The notes: generated from the letters alone by a model not told the origin. Shown: positions 904 to 5,130, counted from the first letter of the stretch. The stretch is DNA of 5,329 nucleotides from a virus (IMGVR_UViG_2534682252_000027:1-5329), one strand, 5' to 3'. Program-made: numbers and translations.

Positions 904-2841
904 TCATGCCGCAGTGTCTGTGCTGTTCACTTCCACCGCAATGCTGTCTATCAGTACCGGGTAAGTCGCACCTCTGGTAATGTCTGTCACATGCAGTTTA
1001 TCCGCCGCAAAGGCACTGACCGGTGACTGCGTCAGCGTGAACGGTGTGCCATCCTGACCATCAATAACCGGCGTCACCTGCAGGCTGTTATTCCCGGCAA
1101 AGCGGAAAGCCAGCGTATGCCATTCGTTATCAAATGCGCCAAAGGTTCCCAGTTTCAGGTTGTTTGTCGCCACTTTCGCATTGTGGTACATCACATTCAG
1201 GTCTTTTGCATCTGTCTGGATGTAGAACGCTGCCAGCAGGTTATTCCCCCCGTCTCCGGTCAGGGCAACGCCCTGTGGCAGTGAAGATACCGGCCAGTAA
1301 AACGCCATAACATACTGGTTCGCAGCCAGCGCTCCCGAAACCTTAAAGCGGCAGCGAATCTGCCCCCCTTTCTGTAACAGAGCCGCACCGTTGCCCGCGG
1401 CGTACTCCAGCACCCAGCTGCTTTTACCGGCTTCCTTGGTCAGCTTCACTGCCTTACCTCCGGTTCCCTCCGCATCGCTGACCACTTCTGCCCTGCCGCC
1501 ACTGGCTGACCATCCCTGTACTTTCAGGCTTCCCTCTGACTCGCTGGCAAGGTAAGAGAGCAGTGTTGTGACGCCTGTGGCTTCTGCACCGGAAGGCGAT
1601 GACGGGCGCACCTCTGATACTGTCGATGATGCCCCCGCGTTTAGCGCCACTCTTCCCGCATGGCGCAAAATCGCCGTTGCCAGACGGTCGGAAATAATCC
1701 CGCGGCGAGCCCATGAACTGAAATGGCTCGCCCTGTCCTGTGACGTCCAGGTGGCTGAGCTGTCACGCCATTTCGAACCGTAATATCCGATACCCGGAAT
1801 GTCCGGGTCTTCTTCCGGTTTGTTCGTCGGCACATTCACCCCGTTCTCATCCGTCATGAACGGTACGAAATGGATATTCTTTTCCGTTTTGTTTTTATAG
1901 CTGCCATACACCGTCTGGTACGTGGATTCGTTCTTCTGCTTCCAGAAATACGTCGTGTCCCCGCATATCCAGGGAACACCGCCAGCAGAGCCACCGACGC
2001 ACTGGCCTGCCATATCCGCCAGGTCTGCACGGAATTTATCAACCAGCGCACCAAACTGTGCGGCGTGATTTACCGGCGTACCGCCAAAATCAAATTCCCC
2101 CTGCATCCACACCACGGCAAACAGCACATTTTTCGGATTCTTCTTCAGTGCTGCTTTTGTTCGACCGATAAGGTCCTTATACAGCGGCTTGTCCACACCC
2201 CAGCGGGTTGAATTCTCCGAGGCACCACTCGCGTCACTGTATGTGCCATCGGCTCCGGTGGTGAACGCTGAACCACCACGACAGCACGGAACCAGCAGAA
2301 TGCCCGCATTCGCCGGTATAAACGGCAGCAGTTTTTTGGCGATATGCAGCCCTTGCCCCACGGTTCCGTACTGCCCCTTTGACAGGTCCGCTTTCGGATG
2401 GTTAAGGCGGCTCATGTCCTGCACATCATGCAGACAATGGTCCGCCGGAATGATGTCGTTATATTTACAGGCGACACCGCCCGGTGTCACCGTACTGCGA
2501 CGCGCTAACTGTTTAATACGTGGATCAGGGCTGTCGAATGTATCCGGCAATGGCAGTCCCTCACCGTATGACATACCATTGGACTGACCAGCAAGCGCGA
2601 TCACATAGTAATATTCTGGCGCAACAGAAGGCGCTGAGGTCGTCGGACGGTTGCCTGGCTCCTCTGGTGATGAGATGCTCCCCTCACTCACAACTGGCTG
2701 GATGAACTCCGCACCATAACCAGCTGTCGAAATCAGCGCACTACCATAAGGCTGCCACCCTTCCTTCAGTTTTTGAGTTATTCGTTTCGCAAGGTCTGAC
2801 GGCGACGCCGCCCTGACAACATCATAGTGTTTAAATGCCAT
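904..2841 (-). CDS. nanS: Prophage-encoded sialate (9-O-acetyl-N-acetylneuraminic acid) O-acetylesterase, NanS-p type; N-terminal DUF1737-like region + SASA/SGNH esterase domain + C-terminal domain
   Basis: 645-aa ORF with ATG at 2839-2841 preceded by GGGAGGA; double stop TGATAA. N-terminus MAFKHYDVVRAASPSDLAKRITQKLKEGWQPYG and esterase motif YYYVIALAGQSNGMSYG (catalytic Ser in GQSN) match my recollection of the 645-aa NanS-p proteins found downstream of stx in Stx phages such as 933W. Position upstream of the lysis cassette is the same. Confidence 0.9.
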   Translation of the reverse strand: MAFKHYDVVRAASPSDLAKRITQKLKEGWQPYGSALISTAGYGAEFIQPVVSEGSISSPEEPGNRPTTSAPSVAPEYYYVIALAGQSNGMSYGEGLPLPDTFDSPDPRIKQLARRSTVTPGGVACKYNDIIPADHCLHDVQDMSRLNHPKADLSKGQYGTVGQGLHIAKKLLPFIPANAGILLVPCCRGGSAFTTGADGTYSDASGASENSTRWGVDKPLYKDLIGRTKAALKKNPKNVLFAVVWMQGEFDFGGTPVNHAAQFGALVDKFRADLADMAGQCVGGSAGGVPWICGDTTYFWKQKNESTYQTVYGSYKNKTEKNIHFVPFMTDENGVNVPTNKPEEDPDIPGIGYYGSKWRDSSATWTSQDRASHFSSWARRGIISDRLATAILRHAGRVALNAGASSTVSEVRPSSPSGAEATGVTTLLSYLASESEGSLKVQGWSASGGRAEVVSDAEGTGGKAVKLTKEAGKSSWVLEYAAGNGAALLQKGGQIRCRFKVSGALAANQYVMAFYWPVSSLPQGVALTGDGGNNLLAAFYIQTDAKDLNVMYHNAKVATNNLKLGTFGAFDNEWHTLAFRFAGNNSLQVTPVIDGQDGTPFTLTQSPVSAFAADKLHVTDITRGATYPVLIDSIAVEVNSTDTAA

Positions 2842-3034
2842 GAATCCTCCCGGCCGGGATAATATTGTGAGTAAAATAAGGAGCGGGCTGAAGTCCGGAA
2901 GTTACAGGACAATGGCAGAAGGGAGACTACAGCCCGCAATTCGAAAAAGGTCGCGCAGTTGCGCAGAGTGATTACTATAGGGTATTATTCGCCAGCTGAA
3001 ATATTACTTCACGTTTCATTGTTTATTCCTTGCC

Positions 3035-3062
3035 GCCCGCGTCTCCCAGCGCGGGCTTTTTT
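3035..3062 (+). terminator. Plus-strand rho-independent terminator
   Basis: GCCCGCG (3035-3041) / loop tctcccag / CGCGGGC (3050-3056), a 7-bp all-GC stem followed by TTTTTT (3057-3062). No U-run follows it on the minus strand. Confidence 0.55.
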
Positions 3063-3066
3063 GTCC

Positions 3067-3093
3067 ATAAGAAAGCCCCTCCGGAGAGGGGCT
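3067..3093 (-). terminator. Minus-strand intrinsic terminator, convergent with the 3035-3062 terminator
   Basis: Minus-strand RNA AGCCCCUC-UCCG-GAGGGGCU (8-bp stem, 4-nt loop; plus coordinates 3074-3093) followed by UUCUUAU (3067-3073). Confidence 0.45.
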
Positions 3094-3510
3094 GGAGAGT
3101 GGCGCTATGTGCCATTGCATGGTGCCGGGTGCCTCCCGGTGAATTCAGTATCAGCACCTGAATCCGCGATTATCACATATACCTGGTTGCTGATTGCCCC
3201 TCCGCACAGGGGGATTCACCATGCAGTAGTATTTTTAATAAACAGTAAACAAAAAAATCAAGCATTATGCAGGCTGTTTCTTTTTATCACCGGCCACAGC
3301 AATACCACAATGCCGCAGACCAGAGCGCCATCAGTCAGTACCAACATTATCCTGCTGGTGAAATCCATCATCACCATCACTAAAAGCAGGATCACAACAG
3401 CAAGCAGACACAGTTTATAAAACAATGTTCAGAAAACGCATTCAGCATGCCTAAGGTTCTATTCCTACGAATAGCCAACTTGCAACTTAAAATATTATTT
3501 ATGCAGCCAA

Positions 3511-4269
3511 TTAAATTCTGGTCCTTACAATATCAACCTGAAGATTCTTATCTTGTGCTGATTGATAAATCACAAACCTTTTACTACCTGCATTGAAAGA
3601 AGTAGACAAAACCAGACAATTATCATAACGAGCAAGAACATAATACCAACCATCATTATAATTAATCATTTCATATTCTTTCTTAAACTGTGGTTTGTAA
3701 TATCCTGTCAGAAATGAAAAAAGCCAGAAATATGCCACAAAAGCAATCATCACAATCTCAAAAAAATGCTTTTTTATAAATGGCTTATCATAGAAGCATG
3801 ATACCGATAAAAATCGCCCATAAGATCTTATCGAAGTTGTAACCGCCAGCGCAATCGCTGCTGACAGTAGCAAAAGAGGTACCTGAATCTTCTGTCTCAA
3901 TATAGAAAACTCAATAATTGCCGGCACAAACAATAATTCCACAGCAAAATAAAGGCGAAATACATTTAGCTCTTGCATAGAATGTTTTCTTTTCACTGCG
4001 AAAAAGAATACAACACCAATACCCCAACCGATAAGAAATATAGCAATGACGATAACTGCAAAAAATAAACTTCTGGCAACATCATCAACACCTGCACCTA
4101 CAATCCACCATGGGAAGCCGTAGTAAAAAGAAGTACCCCATCCATAGAAATAAGCACTCCCCCATCCAAGGCATCCCATGTAGGCAATAAAAAGTGAAGA
4201 ACTCCTGAGCAGCGCACCATCCTTCATAACCACCCCAATACAAGATGATAACATTGGCTTACAACTCAT
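3511..4269 (-). CDS. Hypothetical AT-rich polytopic inner-membrane protein (~5 predicted TM helices + ~60-aa hydrophilic C-terminal tail); family not recognised; cargo (moron) gene in the Q-to-lysis slot
   Basis: Longest ORF is 252 aa from ATG 4267-4269, which has no SD. The in-frame ATG at 4225-4227 (Met15) follows GGGGTGG and is the more likely start (238 aa). Hydrophobic stretches: LFIAYMGCLGWG, LFFAVIVIAIFLIGWGIGVVFFFAV, VFRLYFAVELLFVPAIIEFSIL, VPLLLLSAAIALAVTTSI, FFEIVMIAFVAYFWLFSFLTG. Hand-counted 60-nt samples are about 32-33% G+C, against about 47-65% in nanS-p samples. It lies immediately downstream of the lambda-like late promoter. Confidence 0.75.
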   Translation of the reverse strand: MSCKPMLSSCIGVVMKDGALLRSSSLFIAYMGCLGWGSAYFYGWGTSFYYGFPWWIVGAGVDDVARSLFFAVIVIAIFLIGWGIGVVFFFAVKRKHSMQELNVFRLYFAVELLFVPAIIEFSILRQKIQVPLLLLSAAIALAVTTSIRSYGRFLSVSCFYDKPFIKKHFFEIVMIAFVAYFWLFSFLTGYYKPQFKKEYEMINYNDGWYYVLARYDNCLVLSTSFNAGSKRFVIYQSAQDKNLQVDIVRTRI

Positions 4270-4429
4270 AACAAAAGCAATTCAATGCCGTCAAGAGGTT
4301 ACAGGCTAAAAAAACTCTATTACATTGCAGTCAGCATGTTTACTACACAAATACAATTCAGAGCATAAAAACTACTCGGCGGCAGGTTATTGAGACTCAT
4401 CAATGACATGTAAAAAACGCCCATTATTG

Positions 4430-4470
4430 GTGTCAAGTTTCCCCAAAGTTATTCAAAAAGTCAATATTAT
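4430..4470 (-). promoter_or_regulatory. Lambda-like late promoter pR' with presumed Q-utilisation (qut) region
   Basis: Minus strand TTGACT (4459-4464) - 17 bp TTTTGAATAACTTTGGG - GAAACT (4436-4441) - TGACACCAATAATGGG. This aligns with lambda pR' as I recall it (TTGACT TATTGAATAAAATTGGG TAAATT TGACTCAACGATGGG). It sits about 45 bp after the Q stop, as in lambda. The -10 hexamer is diverged. Confidence 0.5.
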
Positions 4471-4506: not shown

Positions 4507-5130
4507 CTAACGTGTGATCGCATTCAAAATGTTGTCTGCGATTGACTCTTCCTTGTGGCATTGCACAACCAGAGCGTCATACAGCGGCTTAACAGTGCGT
4601 GACCAGGTGGGTTGGGTAAGGTTTGGGATTAGCATCGTCACAGCGCGATATGCGGCGCTTGCTGGCATTCTTGAATAACCGACGCCTTTACATCTTCCGC
4701 ACTCTTTCTCAGCAACTATCCCCCACTGCTCTGTTTTGGCTATATCAACCGCACGGCCTGTACCGTGGCAATCTCTGCATCTTGCGCCCGGCGTAGCGGC
4801 ACTACGGCAATAATCCGCATAAGCGAATGTTGCGAGCACTTGCAGTACCTTTGCCTTAGTATTTCCTTCAAGCTTTGCCACGCCACGGTATTTCCCCGAT
4901 ACCTTGTGTGCAAATTGCATCAGATAGTTGATAGCCTTTTGTTTGTCGTTCTGGCTTAGTTCATGCTTACCGCAGAATGCAGCCATTCCGAATCCGGCTT
5001 GTGATTGCGCCATCCCCATAGCAGCCATCACATCAGTACCGGAAAGAGAGTCAGAAGCCGTGGCCCGTGGTGAGTCGCTCATCATCGGGCTTTTTGGCGA
5101 ATGAAATTTAGCTACGCTTTCGAGTCTCAT
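4507..5130 (-). CDS. Q: Late-gene antitermination protein Q (lambda-type)
   Basis: 207 aa, [44 protein letters not shown]...[12 protein letters not shown]...[21 protein letters not shown]...[13 protein letters not shown]. Near-identical over its full length to lambda Q as I recall it, including the Cys-rich zinc-binding motifs. ATG at 5128-5130, stop TAG at 4507-4509. Confidence 0.93.

What the first reader, a model, noticed from the sequence alone, without database searches (positions are those of the whole stretch)
3511..4269. Unrecognised AT-rich polytopic membrane protein in the slot that holds stx in Shiga-toxin phages
Seen: a 238-252 aa ORF with about five hydrophobic helices, an unusual Gly/aromatic-rich segment (GWGSAYFYGWGTSFYYGFPWW) and a hydrophilic ~60-aa C-terminal tail (YYKPQFKKEYEMINYNDGWYYVLARYDNCLVLSTSFNAGSKRFVIYQSAQDKNLQVDIVRTRI). 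I see no motif of a family I can name. It is about one-third G+C inside a roughly 50% G+C prophage backbone. Established: the gap between Q/pR' and the lysis cassette is a classic moron site in lambdoid phages (stx in Stx phages) and is transcribed at high level after induction. Inference: this is horizontally acquired cargo with a host-facing role. Candidates are superinfection exclusion or abortive-infection defence, a membrane-active effector, or an envelope-modifying function. None is demonstrated.
Basis: partly seen in the sequence, partly recalled or inferred. Interest (0 to 1): 0.8.

Follow-up and report, generated by a model that had tools for sequence, protein, structure and literature searches.

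The report
TfpB-family membrane protein, prophage cargo gene
The ORF is a real, strongly conserved inner-membrane protein gene carried as foreign cargo where Shiga-toxin phages carry stx, but it belongs to a catalogued family (Pfam TfpB, also in phage 434 and Salmonella STM1630) whose function nobody has shown.

Summary
Window 3511-4227 (- strand) encodes a 238-aa protein. It has five predicted membrane helices and a roughly 55-residue C-terminal beta domain. Its G+C is 36.5%, against 51-55% in the flanking genes. It is the first gene after a lambda-type pR'/qut site, and it fills the position that tRNAs plus stx2AB fill in an Stx2a phage.

It is not unrecognised. It is 99.6% identical to phage 434 gene 68, matches PHROG 1521, and near-identical proteins carry the Pfam label PF27470 "TfpB". 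Relatives include the Moraxella pilin-locus ORF tfpB (29% identity, E 3e-23) and Salmonella STM1630 (46%). Intact copies also sit on Shigella pINV and next to eltAB on ETEC plasmids.

dN/dS of 0.05-0.10 shows purifying selection. A promoter-like block travels with the gene. There is no significant match to PADLOC, PDB or viral structure libraries, and no catalytic motif or conserved partner gene.

Best reading: a stand-alone lysogenic-conversion protein acting at the periplasmic face of the inner membrane. Entry exclusion is the leading specific guess and is untested. Moderate interest, because the family is known but its function is open.

The parts
3511..4227 (-). CDS of the TfpB-family (PF27470, PHROG 1521) inner-membrane protein, 238 aa. 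The 252-aa and 247-aa versions are upstream extensions that homologues do not support.
4230..4236 (-). Shine-Dalgarno-like GGGGTGG ahead of ATG 4227
   Evidence: sequence; GG conserved
4245..4298 (-). Promoter-like block that travels with the gene. It contains CCTCTTGACG (TTGACG at 4294-4289), TTTGTTATG (4275-4267) and TATCAT (4250-4245). It is conserved even in the ETEC plasmid copy, whose synonymous sites are saturated.
   Evidence: Function as a promoter is inferred, not shown.
4436..4464 (-). Lambda-type late promoter pR' with a qut-like site: TTGACT followed by TTTTGAATAACTTTGGGGAAA, 17 of 21 matches to lambda qut. The ORF is the first gene downstream.
   Evidence: mapped from the annotation of phage mEp234
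3196..4388 (-). AT-rich cargo block shared as a unit with phage 434, E. albertii and Escherichia sp. MOD1. It comprises an upstream leader, the TfpB-family gene, the DUF3927 gene and the start of the sRNA.
3258..3425 (-). Small membrane ORF (55 aa here, 52 aa in RefSeq) of family DUF3927. It is called TciB after phage P1 tciB. It accompanies the TfpB gene only in the close Escherichia lineage.
3063..3250 (-). STnc100-family small RNA (Rfam RF02076), full length at 140 bits. It is part of the backbone shared with Stx phages downstream of stx2B. Its 3' end carries the terminator-like hairpin at 3093-3074.
4507..5130 (-). Late antiterminator Q (Pfam Antiterm PF03589), the upstream flank of the slot
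904..2841 (-). nanS-p type sialate O-acetylesterase (DUF1737 + SASA + DUF6645), the downstream flank of the slot

Best explanation
Identity, which is well supported: the ORF is a member of the TfpB family (Pfam PF27470). It is a 238-aa protein carried as a self-contained moron (a cargo gene added to a phage genome). The unit consists of its own promoter-like block, the gene, in this lineage a small DUF3927 membrane ORF, and then the backbone sRNA and terminator. It was inserted just downstream of pR'/qut of a lambdoid prophage.

How it works, which is inferred: it inserts in the inner membrane with the N-terminus in the cytoplasm. It has five helices and a small, membrane-proximal, SH3-like beta domain in the periplasm. 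It has no catalytic motif and no conserved partner gene. It therefore most likely acts by binding a conserved host or incoming component at the periplasmic face of the inner membrane.

The most likely specific role is lysogenic conversion that blocks something from crossing or assembling at that membrane, such as superinfection exclusion of phage DNA or tolerance to imported toxins. It would be expressed from its own promoter in the lysogen and more strongly from pR' after induction. Some pathogens have kept the gene after the surrounding phage decayed: Salmonella STM1630, Shigella pINV and ETEC LT plasmids.
For: Identity:
- PHROG 1521 matches at E 1e-153.
- Proteins 99% identical carry the PF27470 TfpB label.
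- Phage 434 gene 68 is 99.6% identical.
- Moraxella 'protein tfpB' matches at E 3e-23, 29% identity over 220 residues.
- STM1630 is 46% identical. Its identity with P0074 was confirmed by gene length, its position beside sseJ and a published primer sequence.

Real and constrained:
- dN/dS is 0.05-0.10 in prophage and chromosomal copies alike.

Moron architecture:
- G+C is 0.365 against 0.51-0.55 in the flanks.
- The cargo block has sharp homology breaks at about 4388 and 3196.
- An upstream block is conserved despite dS of about 2.
- The gene follows two unrelated Q families.
- In a Rodentibacter prophage it lies in the early region near the repressor.

Topology and site of action:
- Ten K/R residues lie in the N-terminus and loops 79-88 and 134-154. 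Three lie in the other loops.
- Six of the seven positions conserved at >=90% across 51 family members map to the predicted periplasmic half: A25, Y26, G37, P39, G175 and Y195.

Stand-alone action:
- Neighbours differ in every genus.
- DUF3927 is present only in the close Escherichia lineage.

Non-enzymatic:
- There are no family-wide polar invariants.
- There are no Pfam, NCBIfam or PDB hits.
Against: No exclusion phenotype has been measured.
- There is no similarity to any PADLOC model, to PHROGs annotated as exclusion, or to BFVD or PDB folds.
- The published phenotypes of the Salmonella homologue point to the animal host rather than to phages. It is expressed in SPI-2-inducing medium and in macrophages. 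Signature-tagged mutants were attenuated in calves and chicks. The deletion raises intramacrophage fold replication in strain 4/74.
- The founding Moraxella member lies inside the type IV pilin inversion locus, which suggests a pilus-related role.
- The topology comes from charge counting and an AlphaFold model with pLDDT 78, not from experiment.
- The promoter scan as a whole found no more sites than shuffled sequence gives.
Confidence: 0.4

Rival explanations
1. Host-adaptation or virulence-associated envelope factor. The protein changes envelope physiology in the animal host, for example growth restraint, stress tolerance or surface-structure output, and is kept for that reason. Phage carriage would be only its vehicle.
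For: STM1630 is bound by H-NS and is expressed in SPI-2-inducing medium and inside macrophages. Signature-tagged mutants were attenuated in calves and chicks. Its promoter is inactivated in invasive ST313, and the gene is absent from S. Typhi.

Intact copies persist on 106 Shigella plasmid records among IS debris. Copies sit next to eltAB on ETEC plasmids and next to sseJ/steB in Salmonella. Relatives occur in mucosal pathogens such as H. ducreyi, Mannheimia, Pasteurella, Moraxella and Neisseria.
Against: The phenotypes are weak or inconsistent. There is no growth defect in LB, and the deletion increases intramacrophage replication in 4/74. The hypermotility seen in a screen is not among the phenotypes confirmed with clean deletions.

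Linkage to virulence genes may only reflect shared delivery through the same phage slot. AT-rich DNA silenced by H-NS is often derepressed under SPI-2 conditions whatever its function.
Confidence: 0.25
2. Pilin or pseudopilin accessory protein. Like TfpY/FimB-like proteins, it would bind the membrane-anchored pilin pool and modulate assembly of type IV pili or a related type II secretion pseudopilus.
For: The family is named after Moraxella tfpB, which lies directly between pilin cassettes of the invertible pilin locus. Loci L027 and L030 show both orientations, one of which places tfpB downstream of the complete pilin gene.

TfpY-like accessory proteins are of similar size (235-245 aa), have a cytoplasmic N-terminus, membrane helices and a periplasmic C-terminal domain, and bind pilins (PMC11841053).
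Against: No pilin gene lies near the homologues in E. coli, Salmonella, Shigella, Yersinia, H. ducreyi, Neisseria zoodegmatis, Mannheimia or Rodentibacter.

The architecture differs. TfpY-like proteins have three membrane helices and a larger domain of two beta sheets. This protein has five helices and one small beta domain.

The TfpY paper does not list Moraxella TfpB. Homology between the two families was not tested here.
Confidence: 0.12
3. Phage late-function accessory. This would be a membrane protein made from pR' that tunes lysis timing or membrane state during lytic growth, such as an antiholin-like or lysis-regulating protein.
For: It is the first ORF downstream of pR'/qut and upstream of the lysis genes. 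It is membrane-embedded.
Against: It is absent from most lambdoid phages. Only phage 434 and 2B8 among 50,697 phage records carry it. It is foreign in composition.

It is under purifying selection in chromosomes and plasmids that have no lysis genes. It is much larger than holins. Phage 434B, which lost this region, is a viable phage.
Confidence: 0.06

Closest known systems
Phage 434 gene 68 (CPT_434_68, UMO75332.1, 'putative membrane protein'); RefSeq WP_001302581.1 'hypothetical protein'
   Same: It is essentially the same gene, at 99.6% amino-acid identity. It has the same position after Q and before the DUF3927 'TciB' ORF and a SASA esterase.
   Different: Those records annotate a 247-aa product. 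Homologue alignment favours 238 aa. Phage 434 has a different, Q82-like Q. No function is assigned in either record.
Moraxella TfpB, the namesake of Pfam PF27470: an ORF in the type IV pilin inversion region
   Same: Identity is 29% over 220 residues, E 3e-23. The two share the N-terminal AYxYGWG...YxGYPWW motif, the ARSL motif, the membrane helices and a C-terminal beta domain.
   Different: It is 261 aa and chromosomal, flanked by pilin cassettes rather than phage genes. I found no report of a tested function. That the name derives from Moraxella pilin-inversion work (Fulks et al. 1990) is my recollection and was not verified in the paper library.
Salmonella Typhimurium STM1630
   Same: It is 238 aa, 46% identical and in the same family. 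It is AT-rich, horizontally acquired and bound by H-NS.
   Different: It is fixed in the chromosome between the effector genes steB and sseJ. It is expressed under SPI-2 conditions. Its phenotypes relate to the animal host, and its function is still described as unknown.
TfpY/FimB-like pilin accessory proteins (P. aeruginosa TfpX, TfpY, TfpZ; D. nodosus FimB)
   Same: They are of similar size, with a cytoplasmic N-terminus, membrane helices and a periplasmic C-terminal domain. They have no recognisable catalytic domain. The Moraxella TfpB gene occupies the pilin-adjacent position that these genes occupy.
   Different: They have three rather than five helices and a larger periplasmic domain with two sheets. 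Sequence or fold homology was not tested here, and there is no pilin linkage in the window.
Inner-membrane superinfection-exclusion proteins of temperate and virulent phages (P22 SieA, T4 Imm, HK97 gp15). This is a functional analogy drawn from general knowledge.
   Same: They are single-gene, non-enzymatic inner-membrane proteins carried at moron sites, and they act at the periplasmic face to stop DNA entry.
   Different: No sequence or fold similarity was detected. This protein is larger and has a distinct beta domain. No exclusion phenotype is known for any family member.

Membership tests
Pfam PF27470 (TfpB) | Significant sequence similarity to family members, including the namesake Moraxella TfpB | tested here: met
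   Proteins 94-100% identical to the window protein carry the precomputed PF27470 label. BLASTP to Moraxella 'protein tfpB' P0364 gives E 3e-23. A profile search recovers only this family.
Pfam PF27470 (TfpB) | Score above the gathering threshold of the PF27470 HMM itself | not testable with these tools
   The local Pfam-A copy lacks PF27470. hmmscan returned only sub-threshold noise.
Pfam PF27470 (TfpB) | Shared architecture: about 235-260 aa, the N-terminal AYxYGWG...YYGxPWW motif, four or five membrane helices and a short C-terminal beta domain | tested here: met
   Alignments A1, A3, A4 and A6 and the AlphaFold model.
PHROG 1521 (phage protein family, unknown function) | Full-length HMM match | tested here: met
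   E 1e-153, profile positions 1-222 of 222.
Known anti-phage defence or exclusion proteins (PADLOC-DB v2; PHROGs annotated as exclusion) | HMM match to any defence-system component | tested here: not met
   PADLOC gave no families at E<=10. All PHROG hits are of unknown function.
TfpY/FimB-like pilin accessory proteins | Gene immediately downstream of a major pilin gene | tested here: not met
   The window has no pilin gene. The feature is met only for the Moraxella relative.
TfpY/FimB-like pilin accessory proteins | Three N-terminal membrane helices plus a periplasmic domain of a mixed sheet and an antiparallel sheet (PMC11841053) | tested here: not met
   The model has five helices and a single five-strand beta domain of about 55 residues.
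TfpY/FimB-like pilin accessory proteins | Sequence or profile homology to TfpX, TfpY or TfpZ | not tested
Holins and lysis-cassette membrane proteins | Small (about 70-150 aa) protein with one to four membrane helices, encoded with the endolysin and spanin genes and restricted to phages | tested here: not met
   The protein is 238 aa and is separated from the lysis genes by DUF3927, an sRNA and nanS-p. Family members sit in non-phage chromosomal and plasmid contexts.
MscS-like mechanosensitive channels | Structural match of the membrane helices plus the beta domain | tested here: not met

The most novel reading that the evidence does not exclude
The TfpB family is a previously uncharacterised class of single-gene inner-membrane modulators carried by mobile elements. 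These proteins would bind a conserved membrane-anchored periplasmic target, such as pilin-like proteins or a phage or colicin import component. They would control what assembles at or crosses the inner membrane. The same module would then have been co-opted repeatedly next to virulence cargo: the stx slot in EHEC prophages, eltAB in ETEC, sseJ/steB in Salmonella under SPI-2 control, and Shigella pINV.
Probability: 0.2. Interest if true: 0.65.

Novelty: already known. Interest (0 to 1): 0.4.

Why it matters
The gene is common and well conserved, and it keeps turning up beside major enteric virulence loci.
- At least 682 of 5426 complete E. coli genomes carry at least 80% of the 1.2-kb query, which spans the end of Q, this gene and most of the DUF3927 ORF.
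- It is under strong purifying selection.
- It sits in the stx slot of EHEC-type prophages, beside LT genes on ETEC plasmids, on the Shigella virulence plasmid, and between two SPI-2 effectors in Salmonella.

No function is known for any family member. Classical phage 434 carries the gene, so there is a ready genetic system: a 434 lysogen against 434B, which lacks the region. A simple expression, plating and topology study could assign a function to a whole Pfam family. It could also settle whether this is phage defence, host adaptation or pilus biology.

The finding is not a new kind of element. The sequence, the family and the slot are all catalogued.

Tried and rejected
Searches that found nothing useful:
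- Pfam, NCBIfam and PADLOC scans of the protein gave only sub-threshold noise or nothing. A Pfam scan of all 51 family members gave no consistent family.
- A PDB sequence profile search gave 0 hits at E<=10.
- The first AlphaFold run used 33 close homologues and was too poor to use (pLDDT 59). Adding distant members raised it to 77.8.

Literature:
- Searches for TciB, TfpB, accession numbers and tfpB with enterotoxin or Moraxella found nothing relevant.
- Schlor et al. 2000, on the regions flanking eltAB, is not held.

Other dead ends:
- The search for related loci failed with the wide alignment. With the narrow alignment it returned only six loci.
- Folding the leader 4300-4470 gave no convincing tR' hairpin (z +1.6). 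Dependence on Q therefore rests on the phage 434 record's terminator annotation.

Ideas rejected:
- The 252-aa and 247-aa starts are not supported by homologues, and ATG 4269 lies inside the conserved promoter-like block.
- DUF3927 is not an obligate partner.
- The ORF is not a chance ORF or pseudogene.
- It is not a holin or an MscS-like channel (see the membership tests).

Full report
**1. What is in the window**

All genes run on the - strand. In order they are:
- the end of a NinI-like phosphatase gene;
- the late antiterminator Q, 4507-5130 (Pfam Antiterm, E 1e-57);
- the ORF in question;
- a small ORF at 3258-3425 (DUF3927, E 1e-13);
- a nanS-p type esterase at 904-2841 (DUF1737 + SASA + DUF6645);
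- DUF1378 and DUF826 ORFs.

Sliding-window G+C falls to 0.31-0.41 between about 3300 and 4500. It is 0.50-0.60 over Q and most of nanS-p. The ORF has G+C 0.365 and GC3 0.31. Q has 0.51 and nanS-p 0.55.

**2.

The true start is most likely ATG 4227, giving 238 aa. Full-length homologues from Escherichia, Shigella, Citrobacter, Cronobacter, Klebsiella, Enterobacter, Salmonella and Yersinia are 237-238 aa and start at this position. GGGGTGG lies at 4236-4230. The upstream ATG at 4269 lies inside a conserved non-coding block.

Hydropathy gives clear membrane segments at 53-78, 88-110, 114-133 and 155-176, plus an aromatic/Gly-rich helix at about 10-36.

A first AlphaFold run on 33 close homologues was poor (pLDDT 59). 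With 51 sequences including distant relatives, the model reached pLDDT 77.8 and pTM 0.71. It shows helices 10-36, 47-78, 89-111, 116-136 and 155-181, followed by five strands at 184-235.

**3. The slot**

By transfer from the annotated phage mEp234, a lambda-type pR' with a qut-like site lies at 4436-4464. It reads TTGACT followed by TTTTGAATAACTTTGGGGAAA, which matches 17 of 21 positions of lambda qut. The ORF is the first gene downstream of it.

In Stx2a phage LC645409 the order is NinG, Q (PF06530), three tRNAs, stx2A (RIP), stx2B (SLT_beta), about 350 bp shared with this window at 99%, and then nanS-p. The ORF and the DUF3927 ORF therefore occupy the place that the tRNAs and stx occupy there.

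The cargo block, about 4388 to 3196, is shared as a unit with phage 434, E. albertii and Escherichia sp. MOD1. In Yersinia the gene follows a Q of the other family, PF06530. This is the behaviour of a mobile moron.

**4. It is a real gene with its own upstream signals**

Nei-Gojobori dN/dS values are as follows:

| Comparison | dS | dN/dS |
|---|---|---|
| Window vs E. albertii copy | 0.25 | 0.06 |
| Window vs Escherichia sp. MOD1 | 0.31 | 0.10 |
| Among Salmonella subspecies | 0.60-0.77 | 0.05-0.07 |

The ETEC plasmid copy is saturated at synonymous sites (dS about 2). Even so, the upstream block is retained: CCTCTTGACG, then 13 bases, then TTTGTTATG, then TAT.A. This gives two overlapping sigma-70-like arrangements:
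- TTGACG at 4294-4289 with TGtTATGAG;
- TTGTTA at 4274-4269 with TATCAT at 4250-4245.

That this block is a promoter is an inference. The promoter scan as a whole found no more sites than shuffled sequence gives. I could not find a convincing tR' hairpin in the leader. The phage 434 record annotates a terminator at the position equivalent to window 4365-4390.

**5. What it is**

It is not unrecognised.
- It is 99.6% identical to phage 434 gene 68, 'putative membrane protein', and 97.5% identical to phage 2B8 gp58.
- RefSeq calls it a hypothetical protein, WP_001302581.1.
- It matches PHROG 1521 at E 1e-153.
- Proteins 94-100% identical carry the precomputed label Pfam PF27470, named TfpB. That model is absent from the local Pfam copy.

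The name could be traced. One E. coli fragment and a Shigella dysenteriae plasmid gene are annotated 'tfpB'. A profile of intermediate relatives recovered Moraxella 'protein tfpB' (P0364, 261 aa, PF27470). It is 29% identical to the window protein over 220 residues, E 3e-23. It lies between pilin cassettes of the pilin inversion locus, and both orientations are present among the loci.

The family is small: 71 clusters at 50% identity among 1.84 billion proteins. It is confined to host-associated Proteobacteria:
- Enterobacterales;
- Pasteurellaceae (H. ducreyi, Mannheimia, Pasteurella, Avibacterium, Gallibacterium, Actinobacillus, Rodentibacter);
- Neisseria;
- Moraxella.

The low G+C of the E. 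coli gene fits an origin in such low-G+C taxa. This is an inference.

**6. Contexts**

No gene neighbour is conserved across the family:

| Organism or element | Context |
|---|---|
| Salmonella (P0074 = STM1630) | Between sseJ and steB. Confirmed by its 717-bp length, its position and a published deletion primer that encodes NSSMLLAYLGGLGWG |
| ETEC plasmids | Divergent from eltAB and flanked by IS elements |
| Shigella pINV | Intact but isolated among IS elements; 106 Shigella plasmid records |
| H. ducreyi | Between an rpoH-like gene and mqo |
| Neisseria zoodegmatis | Among housekeeping genes |
| Mannheimia | Beside a YadA-like adhesin gene |
| Rodentibacter | Early region of a prophage, near the repressor |
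| Klebsiella, Enterobacter, Mangrovibacter | Small islands |

The DUF3927 ORF is called TciB after phage P1 tciB. It accompanies the gene only in the close Escherichia lineage, and it occurs alone in P1, P7, SJ46 and other phages. It is not an obligate partner.

**7. Structure and function searches**

- PADLOC: no hit.
- PDB sequence profile: no hit.
- Foldseek against PDB and BFVD: nothing at E<=1e-3. The non-significant top hits are MscS, and for the C-terminal domain SH3-like barrels such as the HIV integrase C-terminal domain.
- AFDB50: unavailable.

Across 51 family members only A15, A25, Y26, G37, P39, G175 and Y195 are conserved at >=90%. None is a typical catalytic residue.

Counting charges supports a topology with the N-terminus inside and the C-terminus outside. 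Ten K/R residues lie in the N-terminus and loops 79-88 and 134-154. Three lie in the other loops. In that topology, six of the seven conserved positions and the beta domain lie on the periplasmic side.

**8. Published data on the family**

STM1630 is described as a gene of unknown function (PMC6785131 S1 text). The same text reports:
- it is bound by H-NS;
- it is expressed in SPI-2-inducing medium and in macrophages in strain 4/74;
- it is silent in ST313 because of two SNPs in the -10 element;
- it is absent from S. Typhi;
- signature-tagged mutants were attenuated in calves and chicks;
- a clean deletion has no LB growth defect and shows increased intramacrophage fold replication in 4/74.

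A screen reported hypermotility. The follow-up with clean deletions does not list STM1630 among the confirmed phenotypes.

TfpY/FimB-like pilin accessory proteins (PMC11841053) are a positional and architectural analogue of Moraxella TfpB. They differ in having three helices and a larger periplasmic domain. That paper does not mention TfpB. Homology between the two families remains untested.

**9. Interpretation**

Shown:
- family identity;
- cargo status and position;
- purifying selection;
- stand-alone distribution on mobile elements;
- absence of matches to characterised systems.

Inferred:
- the topology;
- the periplasmic site of action;
- a non-enzymatic, binding-type mechanism;
- an autonomous promoter.

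My best specific guess is lysogenic conversion that blocks entry or assembly at the inner membrane, meaning superinfection exclusion or tolerance to imported toxins. I put this at about 0.3-0.4. The rivals are:
- a host-adaptation envelope role, about 0.25, favoured by the Salmonella data;
- a pilin or pseudopilin accessory role, about 0.12, favoured by the Moraxella locus;
- a phage late or lysis accessory role, about 0.06, disfavoured by the non-phage copies and by viable phage 434B, which lacks the region.

**10. Verdict**

The gene and its family are already catalogued, so this is not a new kind of element, but no member has a demonstrated function. It is abundant: at least 682 of 5426 complete E. 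coli genomes carry at least 80% of the 1.2-kb query, which spans the end of Q, this gene and most of the DUF3927 ORF. It is strongly constrained, it recurs beside virulence loci, and the phage 434 system is tractable. These make it a reasonable target for experiment and of moderate interest.

Noticed in passing
window 3063-3250 (- strand): A full-length match to the Rfam sRNA family STnc100 (RF02076; 140 bits against a gathering score of 47). It lies directly after the DUF3927 ORF and ends at the terminator-like hairpin 3093-3074. The same segment lies immediately downstream of stx2B in an Stx2a phage. From memory, that is where the EHEC prophage anti-sRNA AsxR maps, but I did not verify this.
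   Followed up: partly
L008-L012 (ETEC plasmids), gene at 5001-5714; eltAB at 2987-4134: A TfpB-family gene, 59% identical to the window protein, lies about 870 bp from eltA and divergent to it, flanked by IS elements. It keeps the promoter-like block seen upstream of the prophage copy. This looks like a relic of a lambdoid late-region cargo slot beside the LT toxin genes.
   Followed up: partly
L018 (Shigella flexneri M90T pWR100, record positions 166806-167522); 106 Shigella plasmid records: An intact 238-aa family member persists on the Shigella virulence plasmid among IS debris. It has no phage genes or DUF3927 ORF nearby.
   Followed up: partly
L027 and L030 (Moraxella), tfpB at 5001-5786 and 1560-2345: The two loci show the pilin inversion segment in opposite orientations. 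tfpB is co-directional with and downstream of the complete pilin gene in one, and convergent with it in the other. Its expression may therefore switch together with pilin type.
   Followed up: no
L016/L017 (Enterobacter mori-like) and L004 (Salmonella): Distant and close family members both sit next to a frmR-like repressor gene and a zinc alcohol dehydrogenase gene. This suggests a recurrent or ancient chromosomal insertion site.
   Followed up: no
L021 (contig JAIITD010000172.1, labelled as a Veillonella sp. MAG): This 3-kb contig matches the window's Q and its partial nanS-p and DUF3927 stretches, and its TfpB copy is 99.6-100% identical. It is almost certainly an E. coli prophage contig mis-binned into a Veillonella genome.
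   Followed up: no
window 3258-3425 compared with RefSeq and phage 434 (equivalent to 3267-3425): The DUF3927 ORF is 55 aa here but 52 aa in strain E2865 and phage 434, because of a difference at the 3' end. It starts at TTG with no obvious Shine-Dalgarno sequence.
   Followed up: no
window 3035-3093, both strands: Two back-to-back G+C-rich hairpins with T runs on opposite strands form a bidirectional terminator-like element between the sRNA and nanS-p. The element is conserved in Stx phages.
   Followed up: no
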